DNA of 64,000 nt from Sporopachydermia quercuum (taxonomy: Eukaryota): the NCBI GenBank assembly GCA_001599295.1, contig BCGN01000009.1, forward strand, positions 124,001 to 188,000, written 5' to 3'. The translations under genes and the position numbers were made by a program. Shown here piece after piece: positions 3,962-53,083 of the stretch. The notes beneath the pieces are model-generated. The model saw only the letters and a list, made by a program, of their open reading frames with translations. It ran no database searches and was not told the origin of the DNA. How positions within the stretch are numbered: the first letter of the stretch is position 1; each line of letters opens with the position of its first letter.

Positions 3962-4534
3962 ATGGGCTTTCGAATANAAAGTGTTAGCTTTCAAGGACCT
4001 ATTAGATATTCTGGCGAATATTGTTCAATATGTGGATTAGGAGCAAGATTCTCGAAGCTCTGAATTAAGTGGTAAAGAAAAGACCCCTTTATTCACACTT
4101 CATTTTTCATCCTGTACAGTTCATTACTAATAGATAATTACAGTAGTTGGAATTTTTTTCGTCTATCAAAATCTGTCGCATTTCGCAAACTATTAGTAAG
4201 ATAATGATGATGATATTCCATTGATACGCATGCAGCAGTTTTTCCCTTTGTAGGTCGGAATGGTATTTGCTAATGTAAAACCATGCCGCTGGCTTAACAG
4301 TAACAACAAATTGTCATACTGTTATGATAAAATCCAAAATTATACCACCTTGAATATCATACTAATAATTACGTTATGATGATCAATACCATTACTATTA
4401 CAGCGCACTATTAAACATTAATTTGTATAACACTTCCTATGAATAGGATAAAAAGACTCCACCGAAATCATAGTAAAAAAAGTAAAAAGTCCTCACCCAT
4501 AAAAAGAAGGAAATAACGAGTTTGTTGATTGTTC

Positions 4535-4972
4535 TCAATTATAAACAAGCTTTGATGTACCAACACTTGCAAATTTTTGTTCGATTGCAAACGGCGATAC
4601 AAATCTATTTGGTTGTGCGACAACGTTACTTATGTTAGACATAGACAAATAAACCGGTAACTCCAGACAAGTATCATCTTCATAACCAATAGCGAACAAT
4701 CGCAATTCGGGGGATTTCAGTACTTTCTGTCTTAAAACATCGTAATCGGCATTTGTTTCAACAAAATAATAAGATTTCTTGCCAGTATAGGCAAACAGTG
4801 CTAATCGAGTATTGATAGATAATTCCATGAGCTGCTTGATGAAGAATGTGAAGTTTTCTTTCTGTAGTAAATCCAGAGAGACATTTGCGATGCTCAGTTT
4901 CTTTTTTGATTCTTCGGCAGAATCGAAATATGACAACCGAATAGTAACAGAGCTAATCTCTTTGTTGTTCAT
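4535..4972 (-). CDS. Hypothetical 145-aa protein, possibly PB1/beta-grasp-like
   Basis: ATG-initiated ORF in good context (ACAATG) with globular-looking composition, convergent with RSP5. No family recognised with certainty. Confidence 0.55.
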   Translation of the reverse strand: MNNKEISSVTIRLSYFDSAEESKKKLSIANVSLDLLQKENFTFFIKQLMELSINTRLALFAYTGKKSYYFVETNADYDVLRQKVLKSPELRLFAIGYEDDTCLELPVYLSMSNISNVVAQPNRFVSPFAIEQKFASVGTSKLVYN

Positions 4973-5786
4973 TGTTGCCGATATGAATAATCACTATCTC
5001 TGTTATTGCTACTATCGTTTATATCGGTACTACGATACGGTATCCCAGGGGGTCAAAAAAGGTTAATGTAATATCTGGTTTGTTATGATCACAAACTGTC
5101 AGTGGACTCTTTAGACATTCAACCTATGTCAAAAAATAGGTTTTTCAATCTTCTAGAAATATTCGCAACAAAGTGTTAATGTTGTGTTAAAAGTATATTG
5201 GTATAATAGTTGTGCTATAGCATGTAAAACAAGAATTCATTACTGTTAAAAGGATTGATCTGATCAGTTTGATGGGGGAAAATGACTAATGTCTTGTGCG
5301 ATAAGGAAATTTTGAGTTTGCATTAGCAGCATGTGAAAACAGTTAGACTCTTGATATCGGAAAGAATATCAATATTACGGAAGACAAAGGTTTACATATT
5401 GCAATGGAACGACAGGAGCATTGGAATTTNAATCAACTGAGAAGATTAATTGAATGGTTTATTCATAAAGATCTATTTGTTAAGTTAGGTAGGTCACGCT
5501 TAATCTCAGAAGAACTCTTCTTGAGCTATTTTAGTTAAAAAGCATGAAGGTTATTGAGCGTCCATTGAAGAACACTTGTATAACGAAGATTGTTTCCACT
5601 TCACTTGTTTTGCTTATAAATCTCTCAAATGAACTCCGACCCGAATTTGGACATAAAGTACTTGAGACAAGTTAGGTCAAACTGATGATTATTTCATTTC
5701 ATAATGTGTGTCTGATGCTTAATGAGCAAAATTCAAATTACATGTTGTCATTAGTTAACAAAGAAACAAATGATAGTTAATAATTC

Positions 5787-5837
5787 AAGCCCAAAAATAA
5801 AGCCCAAAAGTAAAGCCCAAAAGTAAAGCCCAAAAGT
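5787..5837. repeat. Minisatellite, about 4 copies of 13-bp AAGCCCAAAA(G/A)TA
   Basis: Read directly from the sequence. Confidence 0.9.
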
Positions 5838-6593
5838 TTCACAGCTCTCCCTTAAATTAAAATGCTTCAAAGTCATTGTAGAGTTTGAAGTTTCAATTTT
5901 TATGGATTACACGATCAATAAAGATTGTCAGCTGACGTCAATTTGAGGGTTTCTTATGAGGGTTTCTCGGCTTCCCAACAAGGAAAGTATAAAATAGAAA
6001 CGTGCTATAGATGTACACGCGTAAGTTAAGGTTTAAATCGAGGCGAGACCAAAAAATAGGTTTCTGAATTATGGGGGAATGTTGGAAGCACGTCAGATAT
6101 ATGGNTTCGAACGTGCTTCTCATACAATGTAGTTGGAAGAAATTTTGACTTGTCTTCAAAGTCAATGAAGATGGGCTAAGCCTTATTTGTGGAGTCAAGT
6201 TGCAGATCTTGAAAAGATCTCACGAAATTAACAAAACTGTAAGTATCTATATAGTATTTTAAGTAACCCAACGGATAGTAGTTATTGCGTATTNTAACCA
6301 ACGCACAAGAAGGGTCAAAAATGAAAATATAACCCAAAATANTATACCAACAATGCCTACAACCAACTACAAGCTTTTATGCGTTCATAAACATGCTTTA
6401 TTACCCAGTAACTGCCCAGTAGTACTTCCTATATAATAATGTATATATTGTCATAATTTGATTTTTGTTTCCCTTAACTTGTCAAAAGCCGATAATTTAA
6501 TGAATGACTATCACTATTACCTTGAAACCATTAATTAATTCCCATTTTCGTAACTCATTTCAAATATTGTATGAATAAAGTATGAATAAATTA

Positions 6594-15000: not shown

Positions 15001-15929
15001 CTATCTACCAATTCTTCCTAGCTTTAATGGCTGTAGTGCAAGGATCCCAAAATGCAGGTTCTGTATTCTCTCATGCTCCTGGTATTGGAAAGGCAAGACA
15101 AGCATGTATAAATATATGTGGTGTTTTCCAGTATCAACCAAGGATTGACACGAGGTCAAATGAGGGTAGTCATATTGATACCCTATCAATTTTTGGTGAT
15201 TTAGAATTACAAGATGTTCATTTCCGTTATACTACCAGACTTCAGAGCCCTGTCTTACGAGGTATCAGCCTGAATGTTGGAAGGAATCAAACAGTAGGCA
15301 TTGTAGGACGCTCAGGGTGTGGCAAAAGTACTATCATCAATTTGATTGAAAGATTTTATGATCCTCAAGCTGGAAAAGTGTTGTTAGACGGTCAAGACAT
15401 CACTAGCCTGAATATCAACGACTACCGAAAATGTCTTGCATTGGTACCACAGGAACCGACGTTATATTCTGGAACTATCAAAGATAACATTACAATCGGA
15501 GTTGACTATGAAGTATCTGATGACGAGCTATTTTCAGTGTGTAAGCAAGCAAATATTCACAATTTTATTGTTTCTTTATCGGAAGGATATGATACTGAGT
15601 GTGGCTCCAAAGGTGTTGCTCTTTCAGGTGGTCAACGACAACGAATTTGCATTGCAAGAGCATTATTAAGAAACCCGANAATTCTTTTGCTTGACGAAGC
15701 TACTTCAGCTCTTGATAGTGACTCTGAAATTCAATTACAAGAGGCATTGGCGGCAGCAGCCAAAGACAGAACGACAGTTGTTGTTGCTCATAGGCTCAGT
15801 ACGATCCAGCATGCTGATCATATTTACGTTATAGAGGATGGAATTGTAGCAGAATCTGGAACTCATAAGGAGTTGGTGAAGATGAATGGAATCTACGCTG
15901 AAATGACGAGGCTACAGGCGCTAGAATAG
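12042..15929 (+). CDS. Full-length ABCB (MDR1/P-glycoprotein, Pmd1-like) ABC transporter
   Basis: TMD-NBD-TMD-NBD layout; Walker A GPSGCGKS and GRSGCGKS; signature LSGGQKQR and LSGGQRQR; Walker B LLLDEATSALD twice. First ATG at 12042. Confidence 0.95.
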   Translation: MISKLFRKKEILNEKAEADLSPEEKEVNEEDVSKSSGTKISASLESASEYPSILEEQIHPYEAKINYFTLFRYIKTHEIFISLSGCLASIVCGASLPLMTIVFGSITQSFMNYVQGFTSKDEFQHEINKNGLYFLYLGIALGVCTFLSTFIHVLIGEILTLRVRQHYMMSILHQNVAFFDYVGSGEVTERITNTASLLQDSISEKLGTVIEAIAQFVAAFIVCFIKSWRLTLILCSSVVVLVILMGYSSARIVKFARLALGTYSTASNVADESFTAVRSTIAFGAQDKVAEMYDKQILVSRFWAIKRGRAVAEMVGLIWGIVYLSYALAFWQGSRYLVDNTITVAAVITTIMSVILGLFALGVAAPHVQSIATGVAAASKLFNTIDRVPSIQSGEELCKDELKGHIDFKHVKFIYPSRPDRVILKDFSLAIQKGSTVAIVGPSGCGKSTLIAILERFYEFVDGSVEIDGKDIRTFDVQSVRRQLALVSQDPTLFSCSIRENIEFGLIGSPYEFCDAEEKEKLINQALRDSYAYQFVHKLSDGLDTYVGERGLQLSGGQKQRIAIARAIVAKPRILLLDEATSALDTKSEGIVQKALDRISEDKSITKLIVAHRLSTIRNADRIVVMDQGDIIESGTHDELYSLRGLYFKLVESQNLGSRQRQVISRIGADVAEEEIVDELDDDNKLVAADVNSIEYIAPPEQAIRKAGVIESIKFLYNFNKSEKFAIILGFIIAVVVGGSYPGLSILFAKTVNAFRYSFEDPHEMRKNVNMYTGFLFMLGIITLFLYWAMICAMNFASSHLVRQIRLNTFKHLLRQDVEFFDRKENSVGALTAMLARDAQDVEGLSGATLAQICTSLCTIVAGIILSLAVNWRMALVCTACVPLLVICGFLRVFILKVLADKNKSLTASTAGMASEIISSLRVVVSLTREKGVYDEYCQLLAQQFSSSIPSILKSAGIYGLSQAFVPWVMGLGFWYGGTLIKNLDISIYQFFLALMAVVQGSQNAGSVFSHAPGIGKARQACINICGVFQYQPRIDTRSNEGSHIDTLSIFGDLELQDVHFRYTTRLQSPVLRGISLNVGRNQTVGIVGRSGCGKSTIINLIERFYDPQAGKVLLDGQDITSLNINDYRKCLALVPQEPTLYSGTIKDNITIGVDYEVSDDELFSVCKQANIHNFIVSLSEGYDTECGSKGVALSGGQRQRICIARALLRNPXILLLDEATSALDSDSEIQLQEALAAAAKDRTTVVVAHRLSTIQHADHIYVIEDGIVAESGTHKELVKMNGIYAEMTRLQALE

Positions 15930-16081
15930 CATAGGAGTTGAGTTGCTTGTATATGGTTTAATGATAATTATGGTACATAGGAATTGGGTTACTTGTATAT
16001 ATTGTATATAGTTTAATAATAAGTAATATGATAGGTTTAGGAAATAAAGTAGTTGTACATTGATTAAAAGAATAAAAAAAG

Positions 16082-16155
16082 TGGACGACACCGGAATCGA
16101 ACCGGGGACCTCCCGCATGCTAAGCGGATGTGATAACCAACTACACCAGACGCCC
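16082..16155 (-). tRNA. tRNA-Ala (AGC)
   Basis: GGGCGTC...TCCGC-TT-AGC-AT-GCGGG...GGTTCGATTCC...GTCGTCCA with the G3:U70 Ala identity pair, followed by a T7 Pol III terminator (16074-16080). Confidence 0.97.
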
Positions 16156-16164
16156 TTCATGTGG

Positions 16165-16432
16165 TGTTACTGTCTGATCATACATCATTCAGTAAAATAA
16201 AATGAATTTTAAGAAAAATTGAAGAATTGTATTAGAATTCTTACTCTTTTTCCTTCTTCTCCTTCCTTTTCTTATTAATTAGAAAGAGAAGAATGAGAGT
16301 AAATAATCAGCGAAGTAAATAGTATATATATATAAAAGGTACAAATAGAAATATAGATAGATGTGAAATGCCAATGTGTCACGTGAAAGGTCACGTGGTT
16401 TAGTAATAAGTAATGCATAGCTGGTTGTTACA
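16165..16432. mobile_element. Solo LTR 1 (268 bp), Ty3/gypsy-like
   Basis: TGT...ACA termini and a perfect 5-bp TSD TGTGG (16160-16164 and 16433-16437). Contains a TATA run and two CACGTG motifs. Lies 9 bp upstream of the tRNA-Ala 5' end. Confidence 0.85.
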
Positions 16433-16438
16433 TGTGGG

Positions 16439-16704
16439 TGTTACTGTCTGTTCATATATCATTCAGTAAAATAAAATGAATGTTAAGAAAAATTGAAGAA
16501 TTGTATCAGAATTCTTACTCTTTTCCCTTCTTCCCCTTCTTCTTATTATTAATTAGAAATAGAAGAATTAGAGTAAATAATCAGCGAAGTAAATAGTATA
16601 TATATAAAAGGTACAAATAGAAATATAGATAAATGTAAAATGCCAATGTGTCACGTGAAAGATCACGTGGTTTAGTAATAAGTAATGCATAGCTGGTTGT
16701 TACT
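16439..16704. mobile_element. Solo LTR 2 (266 bp), older copy of the same family
   Basis: About 94% identical to LTR 1 by hand alignment (~15 substitutions and one 2-bp indel). Terminal ACA decayed to ACT; TSD GTGGG (16434-16438) vs GCGGG (16705-16709). Confidence 0.8.
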
Positions 16705-17583
16705 GCGGGGGTATTGGAGCATATCATACATAGCGTATAGAAGAACTACCACGGTTTTGTTACTTTTTCTTTATAGTATTGATAGAAAACTATCGCTGTA
16801 GTAAAAAGTATGAAAGCAAAATTGTTTATTAGAAGCTACCTCTTTTCTATTCGAGTGAATTTGTTGCAAGCTATTAAATCCTGTGTAAGTAATGTATGTA
16901 CCTAAGTAGTAAACCACATAAATCTGAGTTCAACTTATGGCTGGTACCTTCTGATTTTCCGACTAAGAAATTAAGAAAATATCCTAGTAGGTAACTTTAG
17001 GGAGTTCTCTTTTTATATATCTGGTAACTGTTTTAAATTGTTTTTATTAAAATTTATATGCTTTTCAGCAGTTTCTGCACGATTCTCAGAGACTCGGACG
17101 ATTTCAATGGTCAGACAAATAAGAATTAGGGTTATAGATCTACTTTACTATTTTGGGAAGCTAAAATGAGTCTTGAGTCTTGGCTTGAATTGATGCTCTC
17201 ACAATTCATCAGAATTGTTCTGAACATCCAAAATGATAGGAGATTAAATAAACAGTTTTTTTATACTATCTGTTTGTAATCTATTTTGATTTGCTTCCTT
17301 GTTTCATCTTAGCATTTCTTTACTCTTACTTGATTTCCAAACTCCAACCTGTGAATATTTTCAGTGCGTATGCTTCAAAGTTTTTATTCAAAAACTATAC
17401 ATAATTCCCAGTTTTCCTATTGAGAACAATTAAAATACTCTTTCATTTGCCTGACTAAATGCCCAACTGATAAGAGTATACAAAACAAAATAGTACTATT
17501 ATAGTAAAAATATAAAAATTCATTAATAACCCACTAGTTCATATCATATACATAAAATATAACAAAAAAAGAATAAAAAAATG

Positions 17584-17683
17584 CTTCCCCGCCAGGGATC
17601 GAACCTGGAATCTTTCGCTGTGACCATATGTACGTTCATTTAAGAAATCGTAGGCGAACGCCTTGCCATTGGGCCACGAGGAA
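17584..17683 (-). tRNA. tRNA-Arg (ACG) with 28-nt intron (17620-17647)
   Basis: TTCCTCG...TTCGC-CT-ACG-A[intron]A-GCGAA...CCAGGTTCGATCCCTGG-CGGGGAAG. The intron is at canonical position 37/38 and contains CGTA able to pair with the anticodon loop. T-run terminator downstream. Confidence 0.95.
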
Positions 17684-17967: not shown

Positions 17968-18768
17968 TCAACCAAAAGTCGACCATTCAATGGAGAAGCA
18001 GATATTTTCATCTGATTCTTCTTCGTAACCCCCTAAAAGTAATACCTTTTTGACACCAGTTGCTAATCTTCCACCACTTACTATATCCATAACATCTACC
18101 TTTTCATCATAAGCAACAGCGTTTGCGAGAAAATGCGAATGATATCTCAGCGGATCACCAGGATACGCAATCATTTGACATCCAAATCTCAATCCAGGTG
18201 TAATATAATAACTTCTTTCGTGCAAATACCTGTAGAGCTTGTATCTCTCAACACTAGTCTGTTCCAATAACTTTTGAAACAAACGTCTAAACATGCTGTT
18301 ATCTTGATCTGAACTATGATTTCTATAAATAGATAGAAATGATTCATAATTAGGCAGTCTGGATGAATCTGAGTCGATATGATAGAACTTGGGGCCAATT
18401 TTCTGTTTTTCATTACTATCCGTCAGAGGCTGCTTTTCTTTCTCACCATCTGCACTTTCCTCGCTGGTTTCTGATCGTTTCCCTACAGACTGGCTACTAT
18501 CCAGCAAACTCAAATGCAAAGATTTAGAATCCACCAAATCTGCACAGCCATCATCGACTAGTAATAACGTATCTTCAGGCATAAGTTGCAACGGGATGCC
18601 TAAGAATATATTTTGCTGTGGAACTTGAGGAAGTGTTCCTGACAATGTGCCAACAATATTGTGTTCAACTCTTAATCTTTCGATATCACTCACTTTGAAA
18701 ATCATCGGCTTACAACCACCAACAATATGTATTGAAATCCGCTTCCTCTCTTCATGATTATTTTCCAT
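17968..18768 (-). CDS. SEN34: tRNA-splicing endonuclease catalytic subunit
   Basis: GTLPQVPQQNIFLGIPLQLMPE, PGLRFG, YPGDPLRYHSH and GRLATGVKK motifs, containing the Tyr/His/Lys triad. Confidence 0.95.
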   Translation of the reverse strand: MENNHEERKRISIHIVGGCKPMIFKVSDIERLRVEHNIVGTLSGTLPQVPQQNIFLGIPLQLMPEDTLLLVDDGCADLVDSKSLHLSLLDSSQSVGKRSETSEESADGEKEKQPLTDSNEKQKIGPKFYHIDSDSSRLPNYESFLSIYRNHSSDQDNSMFRRLFQKLLEQTSVERYKLYRYLHERSYYITPGLRFGCQMIAYPGDPLRYHSHFLANAVAYDEKVDVMDIVSGGRLATGVKKVLLLGGYEEESDENICFSIEWSTFG

Positions 18769-30162: not shown

Positions 30163-32041
30163 ATGACGGACATTTCTGAAGGTGATGCCAGTATTATAAG
30201 GATACCCCATGTAGTTGTACAACCAAATACTGAAGACGTTTTCAATGATGTGGCAACAGGAGTTAGTAAAAAGGATTCTTTCTGGATTACTCAGTATGAA
30301 TGTGGTGAATCAAAAGAAAAATCACATGAGTATACTATAGATGTTATAAAAGACGATCGAGAAGGAACTGCAGGAAACGCAGAAAGTACGGCATTGAATA
30401 CATCAGAGGCAAGAAATTTACAATTTCGTGCTGGTGATGAGGCAGGTATAAGAGTGCAGCTGGAAAAGGCAGATCAACTGGTTTTCAGTATCGATGGATG
30501 CGAATATAAGGATATGAGATGTGTTCTTCCTAGCAAGAGGTTTTCTTCAATAANAGGTATGTATGATTTTGGATGTAAGAGCTTGATACAATTAAATGCT
30601 ACTATAATTCAATCTATATCAAACTACAATCTATAACTACTAGCTACTAACCTGAACAGCCAATATAAACACTATTGATATTTCTCCCCACGGCCAATTG
30701 TTAGCTCTTGGGGATTCAGATGGTAAACTATCAGTTCTTTCCACTTCTGAAGGTGTCATCAGGGTATGTTATCTACCAATTACTCCTTATTACCATTGTA
30801 TTGTCATTATATCTTTAACTACCTTCAACTTACCTTAATCACAACTCCTATACTTATCATACTAACAAGCACCTTAGAGATCATTTGGAGAGCATTTTCT
30901 CGATGCCACAATTGTCAAATTCTTTCCATCTTCCCAGGTTTTTTTATCAGGTTCAAGCGATATGCGTATCATGCTTTGGTCTGTGCTTGATGGTTCTAGT
31001 GCTCGAACATTCATTGGGCATAAAGCAACTATTACAACCATCGACATGATTGGCAGAGGTAGAAATTTTGTCTCTGGTAGTGAAGACGGCGATGTGAGAT
31101 TGTGGGAATGCAGCACCGGTGATTGTCTACATGTTTTCACTCCTATTGGTATTGATAGTGGTATAGTGGCAGTAACTGTCATGAACATTGACGAGTATAT
31201 TGGTAATAATACTGATAATAATGCTGCCAGTAGATCTAGTACATCACCAACGCTTGAGTTTGAAATTGAGGATAAAGTGCTTGCTGTGAGCTATTCCAAT
31301 GGTTCAGTAGTGTTATGGTTTTTACAGTCGAAGTTAATTATACGAAGAATGCAATGTAGCAGTTTGAGCTGTTTAAAANGTATTGCGGTGACAGCAGCGT
31401 TTTTCCCTGGTGGTTATAGTAGCATGAGTAGATTTATATTAGGATTTGAGAATGGAATCTTCGGCGTATGGCTGTTTGGTCATGAACGGTAAGTAATTGA
31501 ATGTATTATTTGGGGGATGGCAAGGATAGGATGATAGAATAGAATGATAGGATGAGGGGGGTAATAAATTGAAATGACGACGGTTAATTATGCAATGGAT
31601 AGCCATAAAAGGAGAGAAGAACTGTAATTAGTATTAGTGTTAGTATTTGCTCACGATACTACTACCTTTATAATCTTCACACCATCTATCATACTAATTG
31701 CTGCTAACCTTTCATCATTAATCCTACGGGACGACCTTATAGAGAACAACGAACGATTATACTAACAAATACACAGGCCAGAAGCACTCTTTCAGCTTGA
31801 TTCAGAAATAACCAATATCAAGTCAACTGGAAACAAAATCATAGCTACAACATCATCAGGCCAAGCTGTTGTTATTTCATTAACTACAGACTTAAACAGC
31901 AGTACTGTTAGATATGATATTGATGGTATTGGATATCTAACAGGTATGGATTATGGTAGAATCAATAGTATTAGTCTGTTCAAGAATAAGTATGTTTATC
32001 TGGCAGCTAAGTATGGCTATATTGCTCGCTATGAGATATAA
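30163..32041 (+). CDS. RPN14: WD40 proteasome assembly chaperone (Rpn14/PAAF1), 4 exons
   Basis: Exons 30163-30556, 30660-30763, 30878-31488, 31777-32041. Donors GTATGT/GTATGT/GTAAGT, TACTAAC branch points, YAG acceptors. The spliced frame is continuous and contains VKFFPSSQVFLSGSSDMRIMLWSVLDGSSARTFIGH. Confidence 0.85.
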
Positions 32042-32506: not shown

Positions 32507-35362
32507 TCACGGACGAGGTAAAGTATTATTATTAATAATATTACTATTAACAAGAGCTTCCTTGTGATCGGCATAATTAATTGAATAGCCATCTAAATTA
32601 TGAGGTTTTGCAGTTGGAGGTAATGAAGATGCAATGTTTGTCATTGGTGCAGTCACATTAGTAGGAGCACCTGAACCCACAGTAGTTGTAGCTCTTCCAA
32701 TGGCAGAACTTCCAACTGATAAAGGATTTGTTACACCAGAATGGAACGCCGGTGCATAGCCTTGACCAGGTAATCTTGTTTGCGACTGAAACGGTACAGG
32801 AGTACCAGATGCCGCCGAAGGTCCTGTTGAGTAAGTTGGTATAGATGATGATACTCCGGGGATAGATAAACCAGAACTGCTTATAGGAGCCTGGTTTTGA
32901 CCTTGTGGGACATAGGAGAAGTTTGCGGTTGATTGTAGCGGTATATAACTACCTGTAGAACTGGTGGCTAAAGAGTTACTCGATGAAGCATTTGACGACG
33001 CTGAGGCTGAACTGATTGTCATACCAGATGTTAGCGGGTTGATANTACCAGCGTTGATGTTACTGCCGCCATTGCCAGTGCTTGATTCTGAATTAGAGAT
33101 TGCAACCCCAAAAGAATCAGGATCTTTCCAGAACAGATATCTGATCACTTCTCTGCAGTCAACATCAGTGAATTTTCTTCTGGGATTGATATTCGACCCA
33201 TCACTAGTAGTATTGCCATTACCATCAACGCCTCCGGAGCCACTAGCAATAAGCCTGTTTAGTTCTGTAGCGACGTGTCTCCATTTGGCTCTTTCACCAC
33301 GATCTAAAAGCTTCTGCAAAGCCAATGTTGTTTCGGGTTCCCAGCCAAAAGAGCCTCCGCCTTGTTGCCCAATCAACACTTGATATCTATTTCTTGCTGC
33401 TAAGAAATTTGGGATATTGGCAGCATCAGCAATTTCAACCCAGGTTTTACCTAGCTTTTTTAATTTCAGGATCAATTCATCTTGCTCTTTACTATACTTA
33501 CTCTTCTTCTTCACTCTACCAGTTTTATGAGTTTTCAATGAATCGTCATTTGGTTTTGCTTTTGATAGAGGAGGAGTTGGCAATGAGAGCTGAATAGAAG
33601 AAGCAGTTTGAGATGGTCCTGAATGGCTCATGGTGAGATCTTGGTTTATTACTTGTAGATCTCGGCTTAGATGATTAGAAACTGTTCGTTGAACTGCTTG
33701 AGTTTGAGAATGATCCTGCTGTGAAAAACTGCGTTGCTCTTGATTCAATGGCGAGAAATCAATTATATTCAAAGGTGTTGTAAACAATGGTTGTAGTTGG
33801 GGCAAACCTGTTGAATCTATGGGCCAACGAGATGTAGCTGATACAGAAATATTTGCGGCTCTATTATTATCTTCTTGATCTAATTGGAAATCCTCTTCGC
33901 TATTCGATGATTCTGACGATGCTGTAGTNCCCCTCGTGTACGTCGTCGTACAAGCTGTTGTTGCTATTGTTGATGNCGATGTCGATGCTGATGTTGATGC
34001 TGATTCGGAATGAGTCTTACCATATGAGGAAAATGAAGTAGTGTAAGCAAATCTAAACTTATTTGTTGAATGTTTGTCGTTGCTTCGTGTAAATTTCTTC
34101 CGAGATAAATAAGGGTTCTTTGGTTCAGCAACAGAAGGTAGTAAATAGAACGACGTTGATTTCTTTTCGTTACTCGCGCTTCTGACTGTTCCTTCGTCTA
34201 CTGATACGTTTGACCCCAGTGAAGACGGAGAAGGAAGAAAACACGTCAAAACCTTCTTGGAACCGAATTTTGACTCTGAATTGATAGCTGGTTCAAATCC
34301 TCTGTGGATAATATCAACTGTTCTCCTTGTTTGAATACTAGGATCTGATACTGCTATTCTTTTCGTAGTTAGCAACGAGTTTACCACAATAGAAGTAATA
34401 TCATTCTTTATAGTACCTTTGTGTCTCACTGAAAATTTCTCTTCCTCTTCCTCTTTATCTTCAGAATCTTCCTTCTCTTGAGATTTATTGTTATTTCCCC
34501 TATTAAGTTTCTGGTTCTCTTCGTGGTTGTCTTTGGTGTTTTTTATGGCTGAAGAAAGAATATCGCTATTGGAATAATTATTAGTATCGATCGTATTCTT
34601 TCTATGGAAACCTTCTATTGTTTGGGTTGCCGCTAGTTGTTCAGTGTTAGAGTTTAGTGGATACTCTGATTTGCCTAACCTTACGGCTGAATCGGGGGTG
34701 GTCTGATTATTTAAGGTTTGAGGTTGGTAGCACAAAGGAAGATAGTTTGTTGGTCTGGACATGTAATTATGACGGAACCTTATTTGAGCTGTGGAAGGGA
34801 TTGGTAGAGCTACAGACTGGGAGGGTATTTCTGTAGATAGGAAACCAGAAGGAAGGGAGTTAAGCGAGCCCCCTGTTTTAGGACGAGATGCACTGATGGA
34901 GGGATTGAGATTCGAGGTCTGGTTATGGCCAAAGTTTTGAAGATTATGCTGATGGTGATGGTACCTCAAATGTTGAAGGTGAAAGGGAAAATACGGATGA
35001 GAATGCGGAGGAGAAAAATGCTCGATATTGTGATTAGTTGAAGTTCTCGACTGAGAAATGGTTGCAAGTGAAGGTTCTGCTGGTTTTGAAGGTATTAACG
35101 GATGCAATTGAGTAGTAGGTGTATGCACATTTTGTTGATTGGTTGAAGTTAAATGTTCTAATTGATGGTTAGATTCGTTAGAGAAATCAAGAGTAGAAAT
35201 TCTTGATGGTTCTGCAGGTTCATTTCTTGTTATTGGTAGCTTCTCCGTCTTTGGGGTATCTAAAATAGGGGTTACTGTCTTATCATCGCTTAGCAATGCT
35301 GACAATTTCAGCCGTTTTTGAATAGAGGAGCTGGAAATTTCATATCGTTTCCCAGAACCCAT
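32507..35362 (-). CDS. Large low-complexity protein with Myb/SANT-like DNA-binding domain(s)
   Basis: KKSKYSKEQDELILKLKKLGKTWVEIA...AARNRYQVL followed by a second W-containing repeat; the rest is S/T/N/Q/P-rich. Confidence 0.8.
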   Translation of the reverse strand: MGSGKRYEISSSSIQKRLKLSALLSDDKTVTPILDTPKTEKLPITRNEPAEPSRISTLDFSNESNHQLEHLTSTNQQNVHTPTTQLHPLIPSKPAEPSLATISQSRTSTNHNIEHFSPPHSHPYFPFHLQHLRYHHHQHNLQNFGHNQTSNLNPSISASRPKTGGSLNSLPSGFLSTEIPSQSVALPIPSTAQIRFRHNYMSRPTNYLPLCYQPQTLNNQTTPDSAVRLGKSEYPLNSNTEQLAATQTIEGFHRKNTIDTNNYSNSDILSSAIKNTKDNHEENQKLNRGNNNKSQEKEDSEDKEEEEEKFSVRHKGTIKNDITSIVVNSLLTTKRIAVSDPSIQTRRTVDIIHRGFEPAINSESKFGSKKVLTCFLPSPSSLGSNVSVDEGTVRSASNEKKSTSFYLLPSVAEPKNPYLSRKKFTRSNDKHSTNKFRFAYTTSFSSYGKTHSESASTSASTSXSTIATTACTTTYTRXTTASSESSNSEEDFQLDQEDNNRAANISVSATSRWPIDSTGLPQLQPLFTTPLNIIDFSPLNQEQRSFSQQDHSQTQAVQRTVSNHLSRDLQVINQDLTMSHSGPSQTASSIQLSLPTPPLSKAKPNDDSLKTHKTGRVKKKSKYSKEQDELILKLKKLGKTWVEIADAANIPNFLAARNRYQVLIGQQGGGSFGWEPETTLALQKLLDRGERAKWRHVATELNRLIASGSGGVDGNGNTTSDGSNINPRRKFTDVDCREVIRYLFWKDPDSFGVAISNSESSTGNGGSNINAGXINPLTSGMTISSASASSNASSSNSLATSSTGSYIPLQSTANFSYVPQGQNQAPISSSGLSIPGVSSSIPTYSTGPSAASGTPVPFQSQTRLPGQGYAPAFHSGVTNPLSVGSSAIGRATTTVGSGAPTNVTAPMTNIASSLPPTAKPHNLDGYSINYADHKEALVNSNIINNNTLPRP

Positions 35363-51126: not shown

Positions 51127-53083
51127 TTAATTTAACATAGAAGTCCAATCAAAAGGTTTCCAGGCTTTTTCAAAAGCATTTCGTCTTGAATGACTTTCAT
51201 CTTTCTTCCAATTTGGCTGCTTTTTGATAATATGCGGTTCTAAACCACATAATGCTCCAATAGCTTCTCTGGCAAATAAATCTCCTTTCGGCCATTTCGA
51301 TGCGTCTTCGACTATATGGCCCATACCGCCATTAATGTCAAACCAAACATGAAAGTAGGGTGCTTCTTTCGCGATACTCCCTCTAAAAGCATTTCGGCCA
51401 AGTTTTCTGGCATTTTCTTGCGTATTGATGATTTTTTGATGTTGTGACCATTCCTCATCATATGCCAATATAGTTTCACGAAAAACAGCTGGTGCTTCAG
51501 GGAATAATCTTTTAGATATTGGAACTGCGGTAATATAACCATGTCTACGTTGAGATTTCCAAGCTGCATTTTCATAGAATAGAACTGAATATCCTAATGA
51601 ATCATAGAAGCGAATCAAGCTTTTCATAAAATTCTAGAGAAAAAAAGTTTTCCATACAAGTTAGTAACAATAATCTAAGTAAACCCTTAGCGAATCTTCT
51701 CAAGTGAAGCGTCAGATTTCTTTTATTCAATTTACTTACCCTTATTTCTTCATCTTCGTCCTCATCACATTCTAAAGTGCAATTATTATGGCTTAGTGGT
51801 ACGATACATGCACTGAACTTCGCTAATGCAGGCTGGGGTGCTAAACATAAATAGACTCTTGTACCAATACTTATAACTTCGATCTTTCTTCCAGCTTCAT
51901 TCTCCATGCATAAAGGACAATTAGATAATACCCTTTCTAAATTCTTCACATCATTGATAACCATATTTTTTAGATTCTGTTCTTTAACTTTGACTGCTGT
52001 TGCTAATTTTTCTGCGTTTTCATCCATGTAGTCCAAATCATTACTAAAAGTTGCATCGCTAGCAAGTGCTTGTGCTAACGAACGGCTCTCATCTCCTTTT
52101 GTCTGTCTACTCAATATATGCTCTCTATGAATAAGCTCTTTCGCTGACATATCTGCTTCAGCTTTCTCTGGAATCTTTAAAACTTCCGCATCCATTCCAG
52201 TTAAAATTCTCACATTCTCCTTTGTTTCGTTCCCCGTCTTGCAATTAAATTTCCCAAGCAAATCTTGATATTTATTTTCTAATTCTTCAGCCTCTGGGCT
52301 ATTTTTCAATTGAGCTCTCAAAAGCTTAGCTTTAAAAGCATTTAATGACTCTAAAGTCACTTCAGAACCCACTTCCTTGTTATTTATATGCTGGCTGTTT
52401 TCAATGAGAGCCCTACTGTCAGAAGCAGTTGGCGAATGTTTTTTAGATTTTGGCAGTCTTTCCTTATATAATTCACCAGTTGGCTTATCTTTGCGACCAT
52501 TATAATTTGCTCCATACTTTTTCCTGCGATCTAGCTCTTGTTTTTCTTCTCTTGCTATATCAAATTCTTCCAAGCTACTGTATCTTTCTAAAGCTACTTC
52601 TTCTATTTCTTTTCCACATTCTTTGGCTATTTCAAAAACTTTACGTAGCTTCATCATTCTCCAATTGGAACCTCCATCTCCAAAATTGTATGTTACATCA
52701 TATGGACTTCTATCTTTGCTATCTTGCCCAGATGAGCTGGCTAGTAATTCGGTATTGCTGTTTCTTAATTCTTCTTCTGCTTTTCTTGCTACCGCTGCGG
52801 CTTCCTGTCTAATTTTCTTCCCAGTACGCTTCTCTCCTCGTTCGCCTACTAGTGAAGAGAAATCAAAATCGTCGTTAACCATCCAAGCATCCCGCTCTCT
52901 TTTTTTGAAGCCGATATCCCCACTCACCTTTTCACCTTGCTCATCTCGATAATCNTTCTCTTGAAGGGAACATAGAACTTCTTGTTTAGCGTCCCTCGAC
53001 TTGTGTATCTTCGGCCCTGCATCGGAATCAGAATCTGAGTCCGAGTCCGAATCTTCGATCCATTTTCCTTTACCACTCATCAC
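51127..53083 (-). CDS. CWF19: Cwf19/CWF19L2 spliceosome-associated protein (CwfJ C-terminal domains), 2 exons
   Basis: Intron 51739-51634 (GTAAGT...TACTAAC...TAG) joins EEIR|NFMKSL. Motifs GDGGSNWRMMKL, CPLC, EEWSQH, PYFHVWF..GGMGHIVE and FDWT. Confidence 0.9.

What the first reader, a model, noticed from the sequence alone, without database searches (positions are those of the whole stretch)
16156..16709. Two independent solo-LTR insertions stacked at the tRNA-Ala transcription start: a Pol III-targeting retrotransposon family
What looks like a ~270-bp tandem duplication resolves into two TG...CA LTRs, each with its own 5-bp TSD: TGTGG/TGTGG (perfect) and GTGGG/GCGGG (one mismatch, terminal CA decayed). 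The two TSDs overlap with a 1-bp offset in the inferred original site (...TTCA-TGTGGG...). The site was therefore probably hit twice, at 9 and 10 bp upstream of the mature tRNA 5' end; the distal copy is older and each insertion later collapsed to a solo LTR. Insertion at Pol III start sites is established for S. cerevisiae Ty3 via TFIIIB. Assigning this LTR to a Ty3-like, possibly undescribed, family is inference.
Basis: partly seen in the sequence, partly recalled or inferred. Interest (0 to 1): 0.75.

Follow-up and report, generated by a model that had tools for sequence, protein, structure and literature searches.

The report
Two stacked solo LTRs at tRNA-Ala
Two leftover end-pieces of a retrotransposon sit one behind the other right at the start of an alanine tRNA gene in a budding yeast, a tidy but not surprising new example of mobile elements that home in on tRNA genes.

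Summary
A tRNA-Ala(AGC) gene lies at 16081-16155 (minus). Nine bases upstream of it begin two direct repeats, 16165-16432 (268 bp, TG...CA) and 16439-16704 (266 bp, TG...CT). They are 94.4% alike. The first is flanked by TGTGG/TGTGG, the second by GTGGG/GCGGG.

Contigs of three public runs of the same organism show a dispersed repeat of tens of copy-equivalents. Other copies break off exactly at these borders. At least three other copies abut tRNA-like 5' ends 11-13 nt away, with the same end facing the tRNA. At least one other LTR-6 bp-LTR junction exists elsewhere.

The proximal copy is close to the high-copy variant (2 differences in 117). The distal copy differs from it by at least 7 and carries letters found in no other laid contig. 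This favours two separate hits over a local duplication.

No full-length element could be reached: no genome is held and four collection scans were empty. The Ty3/gypsy assignment therefore stays an inference from the insertion geometry. That geometry is 9-13 nt from the mature tRNA, closer than the 15-17 nt reported for Ty3-type elements.

No laid contig reproduces the tRNA-LTR1 or LTR1-LTR2 junction. Verdict: real, a new member of a known kind, of modest interest.

The parts
16074..16080 (-). Run of seven T (on the minus strand) one base after the tRNA 3' end: the expected Pol III terminator
   Evidence: Sequence; 3' trailer printed. Its role as terminator is inferred from established Pol III biology.
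16081..16155 (-). tRNA-Ala(AGC) gene, the target; the mature 5' end is at 16155
   Evidence: ARAGORN; Rfam RF00005, 46.2 bits at 16082-16155. About 10-12 copy-equivalents of this tRNA by summed contig depth (bin 16078-16131 against the flanks).
16156..16159 (.). TTCA: four bases of original upstream DNA left untouched between the tRNA and the duplicated target
   Evidence: Sequence.
16160..16164 (.). Left target-site duplication of LTR1 (TGTGG)
   Evidence: 5 of 5 identical to 16433-16437; chance 0.0017.
16165..16432 (.). LTR1, the proximal and younger solo LTR, 268 bp, TGTTAC...GTTACA, 28% G+C. It has a TATA-like run at LTR positions 159-170 and two CACGTG motifs at 216 and 228. Its sense strand is not established.
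   Evidence: The borders are confirmed by loose ends of other copies at 16165/16167 and 16432/16433. High-depth family contigs differ by 2 letters in 98 and in 117.
16433..16437 (.). Right target-site duplication of LTR1 (TGTGG). It overlaps the left duplication of LTR2 (GTGGG, 16434-16438) with a 1-base offset.
   Evidence: Sequence.
16439..16704 (.). LTR2, the distal and older solo LTR, 266 bp, TGTTAC...GTTACT (terminal A changed to T)
   Evidence: At 16534, 16560 and 16569 every laid contig of all three runs reads the LTR1 letter instead. Loose ends behind 16703 begin with A, which restores ...ACA in other copies.
16705..16709 (.). Right target-site duplication of LTR2 (GCGGG, 4 of 5 against GTGGG)
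   Evidence: Sequence; chance of at least 4/5 is 0.025. This junction and the right flank are reproduced with 0 differences by contigs of X1 and X2 (records 8 and 16).

Best explanation
Two members of one LTR-retrotransposon family integrated, at different times, at almost the same nucleotide just upstream of a tRNA-Ala(AGC) gene. Each later lost its interior by LTR-LTR recombination, leaving two solo LTRs. The first element made the duplication GTGGG, which put its LTR 10 nt from the mature tRNA 5' end. The second landed one base closer, made TGTGG, and pushed the older LTR away. The site is chosen by measuring from the tRNA gene, most likely by the integrase docking on the Pol III initiation complex (TFIIIB/TFIIIC) as in Ty3, and not by reading the upstream sequence. 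That is why a site whose upstream DNA had already been replaced by an LTR could be hit again within 1 bp. Shown here: the anatomy, the dispersed multi-copy nature, the shared borders, the tRNA association of other copies, and the unequal age of the two copies. Inferred: the collapse from full-length elements, the docking on TFIIIB, and membership of the Ty3/gypsy group.
For: Anatomy: TG...CA ends with 5-bp flanking repeats, 5/5 and 4/5; chance 0.0017 and 0.025.

Dispersed family: the unique flanks have summed depth 33.3/99.7/22.7 in X1/X2/X3. The LTR1 bins reach 1597.5/6000.7/1281.8. 70/76/67 contigs were laid.

Borders: loose ends lie before 16165 (2 contigs, X2) and 16167 (1, X2). They lie behind 16432 (3 in X2, 4 in X3), 16433 (2 in each run) and 16703 (3 in each run) (table 7).

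tRNA association elsewhere, three cases:
- The two X2 loose ends before the LTR start are 39-42 letters long. Read on the minus strand they look like the first 17-18 nt of tRNAs, with T8, A14 and GG at 17-18 as in the window's own two tRNAs (my reading by eye). They lie 12 nt and 11-13 nt from the LTR start.
- A further contig joins the tRNA-Ala 5' part to the LTR start through a different spacer about 13 nt long (tables 3-4, positions 16156-16164).
- In all of these the TGTTAC end faces the tRNA, as it does here.

Stacking elsewhere: one contig in X1 and X2 joins an LTR end to an LTR start with 6 letters between. Another crosses such a junction with 3 letters fewer (table 4).

Separate origin: the high-depth contigs (depth 1508.8 in X2, 320.1 in X3) differ from LTR1 by 2 letters in 98 and in 117. 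LTR2 differs from LTR1 at 9 of those 117 positions, so it differs by at least 7 from the family variant. At 16534, 16560 and 16569 all laid contigs contradict LTR2: 5, 4 and 5 contigs in X1; 8, 5 and 5 in X2; 8, 5 and 6 in X3. LTR2's letters at 16632 and 16662 are minority or half-share family variants (16360 G>A at 338.2 of 1055.9; 16662 A>G at 66.1 of 131.2).

The older copy is the distal one and has the imperfect duplication and the decayed terminal base.

Within the 64-kb window the only two copies both sit at one of two tRNA genes.

Literature: the nucleotide-precise tRNA-upstream LTR elements in Table 1 of PMC5911963 (Ty3, Ty3p, Tj1, Beta/Tca8, Tyl3, Ylt1, Tyl6, DGLT-A) are listed there as Ty3-gypsy. 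The Ty1-copia elements (Ty1, Ty2, Ty4) use a window of about 1 kb.
Against: No full-length element, PBS, PPT, gag or pol was seen. None of the displayed loose ends behind the LTR 3' end begins with a TGG-type primer-binding site (38 loose ends were not shown).

No laid contig reproduces the window's own tRNA-LTR1 junction or its LTR1-LTR2 junction. The only contig across 16435 lacks 3 letters and reads A at 16451. LTR2's private letters appear in no contig. The tool states that contigs drop rare variants and that holes prove nothing, so this is unresolved, not contrary.

The LTR lies 9-13 nt from the mature tRNA. Ty3-type elements are reported at about 15-17 nt (PMC5014426, PMC5006619).

The right duplication of LTR2 can also be read as TGCGG after loss of the terminal A. 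That reading puts all three flank copies in one register. It still allows a second hit at offset 0, but it also allows a duplication by exchange between the flank repeats.

The tRNA-like reading of the loose ends rests on 17-18 visible letters. One of the two is a 2-contig consensus with agreement 0.67.
Confidence: 0.75

Rival explanations
1. One solo LTR was duplicated locally. Unequal sister-chromatid exchange or replication slippage between its two 5-bp flanking repeats gave flank-LTR-flank-LTR-flank, and later point changes blurred the register.
For: The period is 272-274 bp, head to tail. If LTR2 is taken to have lost its last A, the three flank copies read TGTGG, TGTGG(+G) and TGCGG in one register.
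Against: This needs three extra events at the junctions (a G insertion, an A deletion and a T>C change) against two for the offset reading. The copies are 5.6% apart and the divergence is lopsided. LTR1 is 2 letters in 117 from the high-depth family contig, while LTR2 is at least 7 away and has letters no other contig carries. Sister copies should drift about equally. Other LTR-LTR junctions with different spacers exist elsewhere, which fits repeated targeting better than repeated slippage.
Confidence: 0.1
2. The double insertion is real, but the family is not Ty3/gypsy. It would be a Ty1/copia-type element, or a non-autonomous LTR element (TRIM/LARD-like) mobilised in trans, that evolved its own precise Pol III targeting.
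For: No internal sequence was obtained. The LTR sits 9-13 nt from the mature tRNA instead of 15-17 nt. In Yarrowia a 278-bp solo-LTR family (LTRyl1) is attributed to an extinct Ty1/copia element, and families LTRyl7-9 are known only as solo LTRs (PMC5014426 passages).
Against: Every nucleotide-precise tRNA-upstream LTR element in Table 1 of PMC5911963 is listed as Ty3-gypsy. The copia-type Ty1, Ty2 and Ty4 spread over about 1 kb.
Confidence: 0.18
3. A single element inserted once (flanks TGTGG ... TGCGG) and later lost nearly all of its interior. That left its own two LTRs 6 bp apart.
For: The outer flanks match 4 of 5 if LTR2 lost its last A. The 6-bp spacer TGTGGG could be read as a scrap of a primer-binding site plus polypurine tract.
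Against: The spacer's first five letters equal the left flank 5 of 5, chance 0.0017, which this model leaves as coincidence. The two LTRs of one element start identical and should diverge equally, contrary.
Confidence: 0.03
4. Assembly artefact: two alleles or two reads of one LTR were laid in tandem.
For: No contig of X1-X3 spans the stretch. The two inner junctions and LTR2's private letters are not reproduced.
Against: An artefact would not give 15 substitutions plus an indel, two complete TG...CA(T) units, and a 6-bp spacer that repeats the target sequence. X1 holds depth at 16451 with the LTR2 letter T: 58.5 in all, of which 30.3 reads A. X1 and X2 reproduce the LTR2-flank junction exactly. 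Short-word contigs are expected to break and to lose low-depth variants inside a repeat of about 50 copies.
Confidence: 0.04

Closest known systems
Ty3 and its sigma solo LTRs (Saccharomyces cerevisiae; Ty3/gypsy, Metaviridae)
   Same: LTR with TG...CA ends and a 5-bp duplication. It inserts at a fixed, nucleotide-scale distance upstream of tRNA genes, and most copies are solo LTRs. In Ty3 the position is set by integrase binding to TFIIIB (PMC5911963 passages and section 11).
   Different: Ty3 lies 1-4 bp upstream of the Pol III start, about 15 bp from the mature tRNA (PMC5006619 passages). Here the distance is 9-13 nt. Ty3 inserts in both orientations with the help of Tfc1 (PMC5911963). All five junctions readable here have the same LTR end facing the tRNA. 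LTR length, recalled from memory for sigma at about 340 bp, compares with 266-268 bp here. No sequence comparison with sigma was made and no internal region is known.
Yarrowia lipolytica Tyl3 and Tyl6, and the solo-LTR-only families LTRyl7-9
   Same: An early-branching budding yeast with short LTRs (244, 276 and about 300-440 bp), TGT...ACA termini and 5-bp duplications, sited at likely tRNA start sites. Some families are known only from solo LTRs found next to tRNA genes. One Tyl3 duplication is offset by one base (PMC5014426 passages).
   Different: That paper gives 15-17 bp from the mature tRNA for this class. Stacked LTR pairs are not mentioned in the passages I read. The host here is a different yeast with about 36% G+C and no close named relative.
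Beta LTR / Tca8 of Candida albicans
   Same: [quoted passage not shown] That range includes the 9-13 nt seen here (PMC5911963 Table 1; PMC4139406 Table 1).
   Different: Beta is 395 bp with about 10 copies. The family here is 266-268 bp with tens of copy-equivalents.
Tj1 of Schizosaccharomyces japonicus and DGLT-A of Dictyostelium
   Same: Ty3/gypsy elements without chromodomain-type targeting that land 1-10 bp upstream of the tRNA start (Tj1) or 13-33 bp from the mature tRNA (DGLT-A). DGLT-A is represented largely by solo LTRs.
   Different: Distant hosts. There is no evidence of relatedness beyond behaviour.

Membership tests
Solo LTR of an LTR retrotransposon (generic) | Termini 5'-TG...CA-3' | tested here: met
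   LTR1 is TGTTAC...GTTACA. LTR2 is TGTTAC...GTTACT, with one terminal change; other copies restore the A.
Solo LTR of an LTR retrotransposon (generic) | Direct duplication of the target, 4-6 bp, flanking each copy | tested here: met
   TGTGG/TGTGG (5/5) and GTGGG/GCGGG (4/5); chance 0.0017 and 0.025.
Solo LTR of an LTR retrotransposon (generic) | Dispersed copies that share the same two borders but have different flanks | tested here: met
   Depth is 35-60 times the flanks. Loose ends lie at 16165/16167 and at 16432/16433/16703 in three runs from two samples.
Solo LTR of an LTR retrotransposon (generic) | Full-length relatives with two LTRs enclosing PBS, gag-pol and PPT | not testable with these tools
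   No genome is held. Scans of the metagenome, viral and prokaryote-genome collections gave 0 hits.
Ty3/gypsy elements that target Pol III start sites (Ty3, Tyl3, Tyl6, Tj1, Tca8) | Pol order PR-RT-RH-IN, with the RT/IN grouping with Ty3 and no chromodomain | not testable with these tools
   No internal sequence was obtained.
Ty3/gypsy elements that target Pol III start sites (Ty3, Tyl3, Tyl6, Tj1, Tca8) | Copies at a fixed distance of a few bp from the Pol III start of tRNA genes | tested here: inconclusive
   The distance is fixed and short: 9, 10, 11-13, 12 and about 13 nt from the mature 5' end. It is 3-8 nt closer than the published 15-17 nt, and the start site in this yeast was not measured.
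Ty3/gypsy elements that target Pol III start sites (Ty3, Tyl3, Tyl6, Tj1, Tca8) | 5-bp target-site duplication | tested here: met
Ty1/copia-type tRNA-upstream elements (Ty1, Ty2, Ty4) | Insertions spread over a window of about 750-1000 bp upstream of Pol III genes | tested here: not met
   All junctions seen lie within 9-13 nt. The window from 16726 to 17300 has unique depth.
Plain tandem repeat or minisatellite | Copies confined to one array, with no dispersed members | tested here: not met
   Dispersed copies with other flanks exist. Tandem Repeats Finder reports no array.

The most novel reading that the evidence does not exclude
This is a so far undescribed Pol III-targeting LTR family of a deep, poorly sampled budding-yeast lineage, and its integrase docks about 5 bp closer to the tRNA than Ty3 does. 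That would put it at or inside the start of the pre-tRNA leader. It inserts in one orientation only. The AT-rich first 50 bp of its LTR rebuild a usable TFIIIB site, so an occupied tRNA gene stays a target and LTRs pile up in register at 1-3 bp resolution. The stacked junctions (spacers of 6, 6 and 3 letters) would then be a natural ruler of the integrase-TFIIIB geometry.
Probability: 0.2. Interest if true: 0.55.

Novelty: new member of a known kind. Interest (0 to 1): 0.3.

Why it matters
Targeting of tRNA start sites is the classic way in which retrotransposons survive in compact genomes, and it has arisen or been kept in several yeast and amoeba lineages. This locus adds a family from a budding yeast with no close named relative. 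It also records, at single-base resolution, that the targeting cue outlives the first insertion: the second element landed 1 bp from the first although the upstream DNA had been replaced by an LTR. This supports measurement from the tRNA gene's own promoter complex and not from upstream sequence. The shorter distance to the tRNA and the apparently fixed orientation would be worth a look once the full genome is tabulated. The kind of element and the mechanism are otherwise well established.

Tried and rejected
- Whole-genome search: no genome is held for this window.
- Earlier notes of this scan: nothing by sequence, by genome or near the place. A word search returned only S. cerevisiae Ty3 cases.
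- Exact-pattern scans for two conserved LTR stretches gave 0 hits: metagenome contigs twice, viral contigs and prokaryote genome contigs. No other copy or full-length element could therefore be fetched.
- Rfam at gathering threshold finds only the two tRNAs in the window and nothing in the LTRs.
- Pfam on 17 ORFs of the window finds no retroelement protein.
- The bacterial-type promoter and terminator scan of 16000-16800 is no better than shuffles and is irrelevant to a yeast.
- Tandem Repeats Finder gave no rows.
- Placing the organism: the TIM44 search gave best identities of 60-63%. A quick, unfinished tree put the window's protein alone on a long branch with no supported sister. I did not go further than 'budding yeast without a close named relative'.
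- Parts of the stretch not covered by matching contigs (own tRNA-LTR1 junction, own LTR1-LTR2 junction, LTR2-private letters) are not used as evidence either way.
- The sense strand of the LTR could not be fixed. The TATA-like run is nearly palindromic, and the two CACGTG motifs would lie downstream of it on the plus strand and upstream of it on the minus strand.
- Considered and rejected: SINE or MITE. The ends are TG...CA with only a TGT.AC inverted match, both copies have a 5-bp duplication, and there are no long terminal inverted repeats.

Full report
**What is there.** The window is yeast-like DNA of about 32-44% G+C with long uninterrupted ORFs. These include RSP5-like, STE6-like ABC transporter, SEN2-like, RFA1, RPB3, UTP22, MDM38, TIM44 and ULP2-like genes. 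No whole genome is held for it. Its TIM44 is at most 60-63% identical to any protein found. The named hits are Lipomyces, Nadsonia, Dipodascopsis, Sugiyamaella and other budding yeasts. A quick, unfinished tree leaves it alone on a long branch. I therefore call the host a budding yeast without a close named relative.

**The tRNA genes.** A tRNA-Ala(AGC) gene lies at 16081-16155 on the minus strand. A run of seven T follows one base after its 3' end. A second tRNA gene, tRNA-Arg(ACG) with a 28-nt intron, lies at about 17583-17683 on the minus strand. It has no repeat upstream of it.

**The observation.** Upstream of the tRNA-Ala 5' end the plus strand reads as follows:
- TTCA
- TGTGG
- a 268-bp unit, TGTTAC...GTTACA (16165-16432)
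- TGTGG, then G
- a 266-bp unit, TGTTAC...GTTACT (16439-16704)
- GCGGG

The two units align with 251 matches, 15 mismatches (9 transitions, 6 transversions) and one 2-bp indel. The repeat finder reports them as two collinear blocks. No third copy is in the window. With the window's composition a 5/5 flank match has frequency 0.0017 and a match of at least 4/5 has 0.025.

**Is it a dispersed LTR-like family?** One search found three DNA runs of the same coded organism, from two samples and two studies, that hold 73-79% of the stretch's sampled words. Their contigs were laid on 15700-17300 at 80% or more likeness.
- The flanks have summed depth 33.3/99.7/22.7 on the left and 36.2/109.8/18.2 on the right.
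- The tRNA bin has 330.8/1115.5/279.9.
- The LTR1 bins have 1174-1598, 3971-6001 and 442-1282.

The tool warns that summed depth is not a copy number, so I take this only as 'tens of copy-equivalents'. 70, 76 and 67 contigs were laid. Contigs that run on into unlike sequence do so exactly at the proposed borders. These are before 16165 and 16167, and behind 16432, 16433 and 16703. Behind 16703 the first loose letter is A, which restores the ...ACA end that LTR2 has lost. Thirty-eight further loose ends and 210 further pieces were not shown. The region 16726-17300 is unique.

**Are other copies at tRNA genes?** Three junctions say yes.
- One X2 contig with 42 loose letters, and a 2-contig consensus with 39 loose letters (agreement 0.67), precede the LTR start. 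Read on the minus strand they begin like tRNAs. T at 8, A at 14 and GG at 17-18 follow the pattern of the window's own tRNA-Ala and tRNA-Arg. This is my reading by eye of 17-18 letters. The tRNA-like 5' ends lie 11-13 nt and 12 nt from the LTR start.
- The loose parts stop about 30 letters into the tRNA-like part. That is expected for 31-letter-word contigs entering another repeat.
- Tables 3 and 4 show a contig that matches the tRNA-Ala 5' part and the LTR start but carries a different and longer spacer, about 13 nt. This indicates another tRNA-Ala copy with an LTR.

In all of these, as at this locus, the TGTTAC end faces the tRNA 5' end. None of the displayed loose ends behind the ACA end looks tRNA-like. 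Those are mixed consensuses, however.

**Stacking elsewhere.** One contig (X1 depth 29.1, X2 67.4) joins an LTR end to an LTR start with six letters between. These are the matched T, four other letters and the matched G. Another contig crosses the LTR-LTR junction with three letters fewer and has the LTR1-type A at 16451 (tables 3, 4). A 3-letter spacer is what a second hit displaced by 2 bp into the older LTR's first bases would leave. This is my inference.

**Two hits or one duplication?** Two short high-depth contigs (98 nt at depth 1508.8 in X2; 117 nt at depth 320.1 in X3) differ from LTR1 by 2 letters each. LTR2 differs from LTR1 at 9 of the same 117 positions, so it is at least 7 away from that family variant.

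At 16534, 16560 and 16569 every laid contig of every run reads the LTR1 letter, so LTR2's letters there are private or rare. LTR2's A at 16632 corresponds to a minority family letter: 16360 G>A, 338.2 of 1055.9 in X1. Its A at 16662 is shared by about half of the depth laid there. In the LTR1 span only 16229 and 16360 are listed as variable at 10% share or more. Four rows were not shown, and letters near contig ends are not listed.

Sister copies made by a local duplication, or the two LTRs of one element, should have drifted about equally. Instead the proximal copy is near the family's main variant. The distal one is decayed, with an imperfect duplication and a changed terminal base. This order, younger next to the tRNA, is what a ruler anchored on the tRNA gene predicts.

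The alternative register (TGTGG, TGTGG+G, TGCGG with loss of LTR2's last A) needs three junction events instead of two. It does not explain the asymmetry.

**What remains open.** No full-length element was reached. Four collection scans were empty, no retroelement ORF is in the window, and none of the displayed loose ends behind the LTR begins with a TGG-type primer-binding site.

The window's own tRNA-LTR1 and LTR1-LTR2 junctions and LTR2's private letters are not reproduced by any laid contig. Only the left flank to 16108 and the right junction from 16674 are exact, the latter in X1 and X2. The tool states that contigs drop rare variants and that holes prove nothing. Low-depth paths inside a repeat of about 50 copies are the kind that such assemblies lose. 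The assembly-artefact test is therefore simply not done. The anatomy argues against an artefact: 15 substitutions, complete units, and a spacer that repeats the target.

**Comparison with what is known.**
- I read passages and the whole of section 11 of PMC5911963. Its Table 1 lists Ty3 (1-4 bp upstream of the tRNA start), Ty3p (about 6), Tj1 (1-10), Beta/Tca8 (6-30 bp from the mature tRNA), and Tyl3, Ylt1 and Tyl6 (about 5), all as Ty3-gypsy. Ty1, Ty2 and Ty4 are listed as Ty1-copia with a window of about 1 kb. [quoted passage not shown]
- Passages of PMC5006619 give about 15 bp from the mature tRNA for Ty3 and 13-33 bp for DGLT-A.
- Passages of PMC5014426 give 15-17 bp for this class. They describe Yarrowia families with TGT...ACA ends known only as solo LTRs beside tRNA genes.
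- Passages of PMC7175516 and PMC4139406 give 0-20 bp for Ty3, and 395 bp with a 5-bp duplication for beta.

The present family behaves like this class but sits 9-13 nt from the mature tRNA and, as far as seen, in one orientation. Whether that reflects a shorter pre-tRNA leader in this yeast or a different docking geometry cannot be told here. I therefore do not claim that it is unpublished.

**Verdict.** The locus is a clean natural record of two hits 1 bp apart by a tRNA-start-targeting LTR family. It is a new member of a known kind. Ty3/gypsy membership is probable but untested.

Noticed in passing
window 17583-17683 (minus), beside 17968-18768 (minus): A tRNA-Arg(ACG) gene with a 28-nt intron at the canonical position lies about 285 bp from an ORF with the catalytic domain of tRNA-intron endonuclease (SEN2-like). 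No LTR of this family lies upstream of this tRNA.
   Followed up: partly
window 16380-16385 and 16392-16397 (LTR1); 16652-16657 and 16664-16669 (LTR2): Each LTR keeps two CACGTG palindromes 12 nt apart (E-box type, as bound by Cbf1/Pho4-class factors; recalled), near a TATATATATATAAAAGG run. They may be the element's Pol II control region. Their position relative to the TATA-like run leaves the LTR's sense strand open.
   Followed up: no
window 51127-51627 and 51602-53080 (both minus): A CwfJ-family (DRN1-like) gene appears as two overlapping ORFs that split the CwfJ_C_1 domain. This could be a frameshift, a sequencing error, an intron or a pseudogene.
   Followed up: no
window 30163-30636 and 30962-31492 (plus): A 176-aa ORF with WD40 repeats follows a 157-aa ORF without Pfam hits. 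They may be one gene split by an intron or a frameshift.
   Followed up: no
window 32507-35362 (minus): A 951-aa ORF with no Pfam family at E<=0.001.
   Followed up: no
not in the window; contigs of runs X1-X3 laid: Elsewhere in the same organism there is at least one more LTR-6 letters-LTR junction and one LTR-LTR junction with a spacer 3 letters shorter. There is also a diverged LTR piece joined to the 3' side of a tRNA-Ala-like sequence (joint 16593 to 16074).
   Followed up: partly
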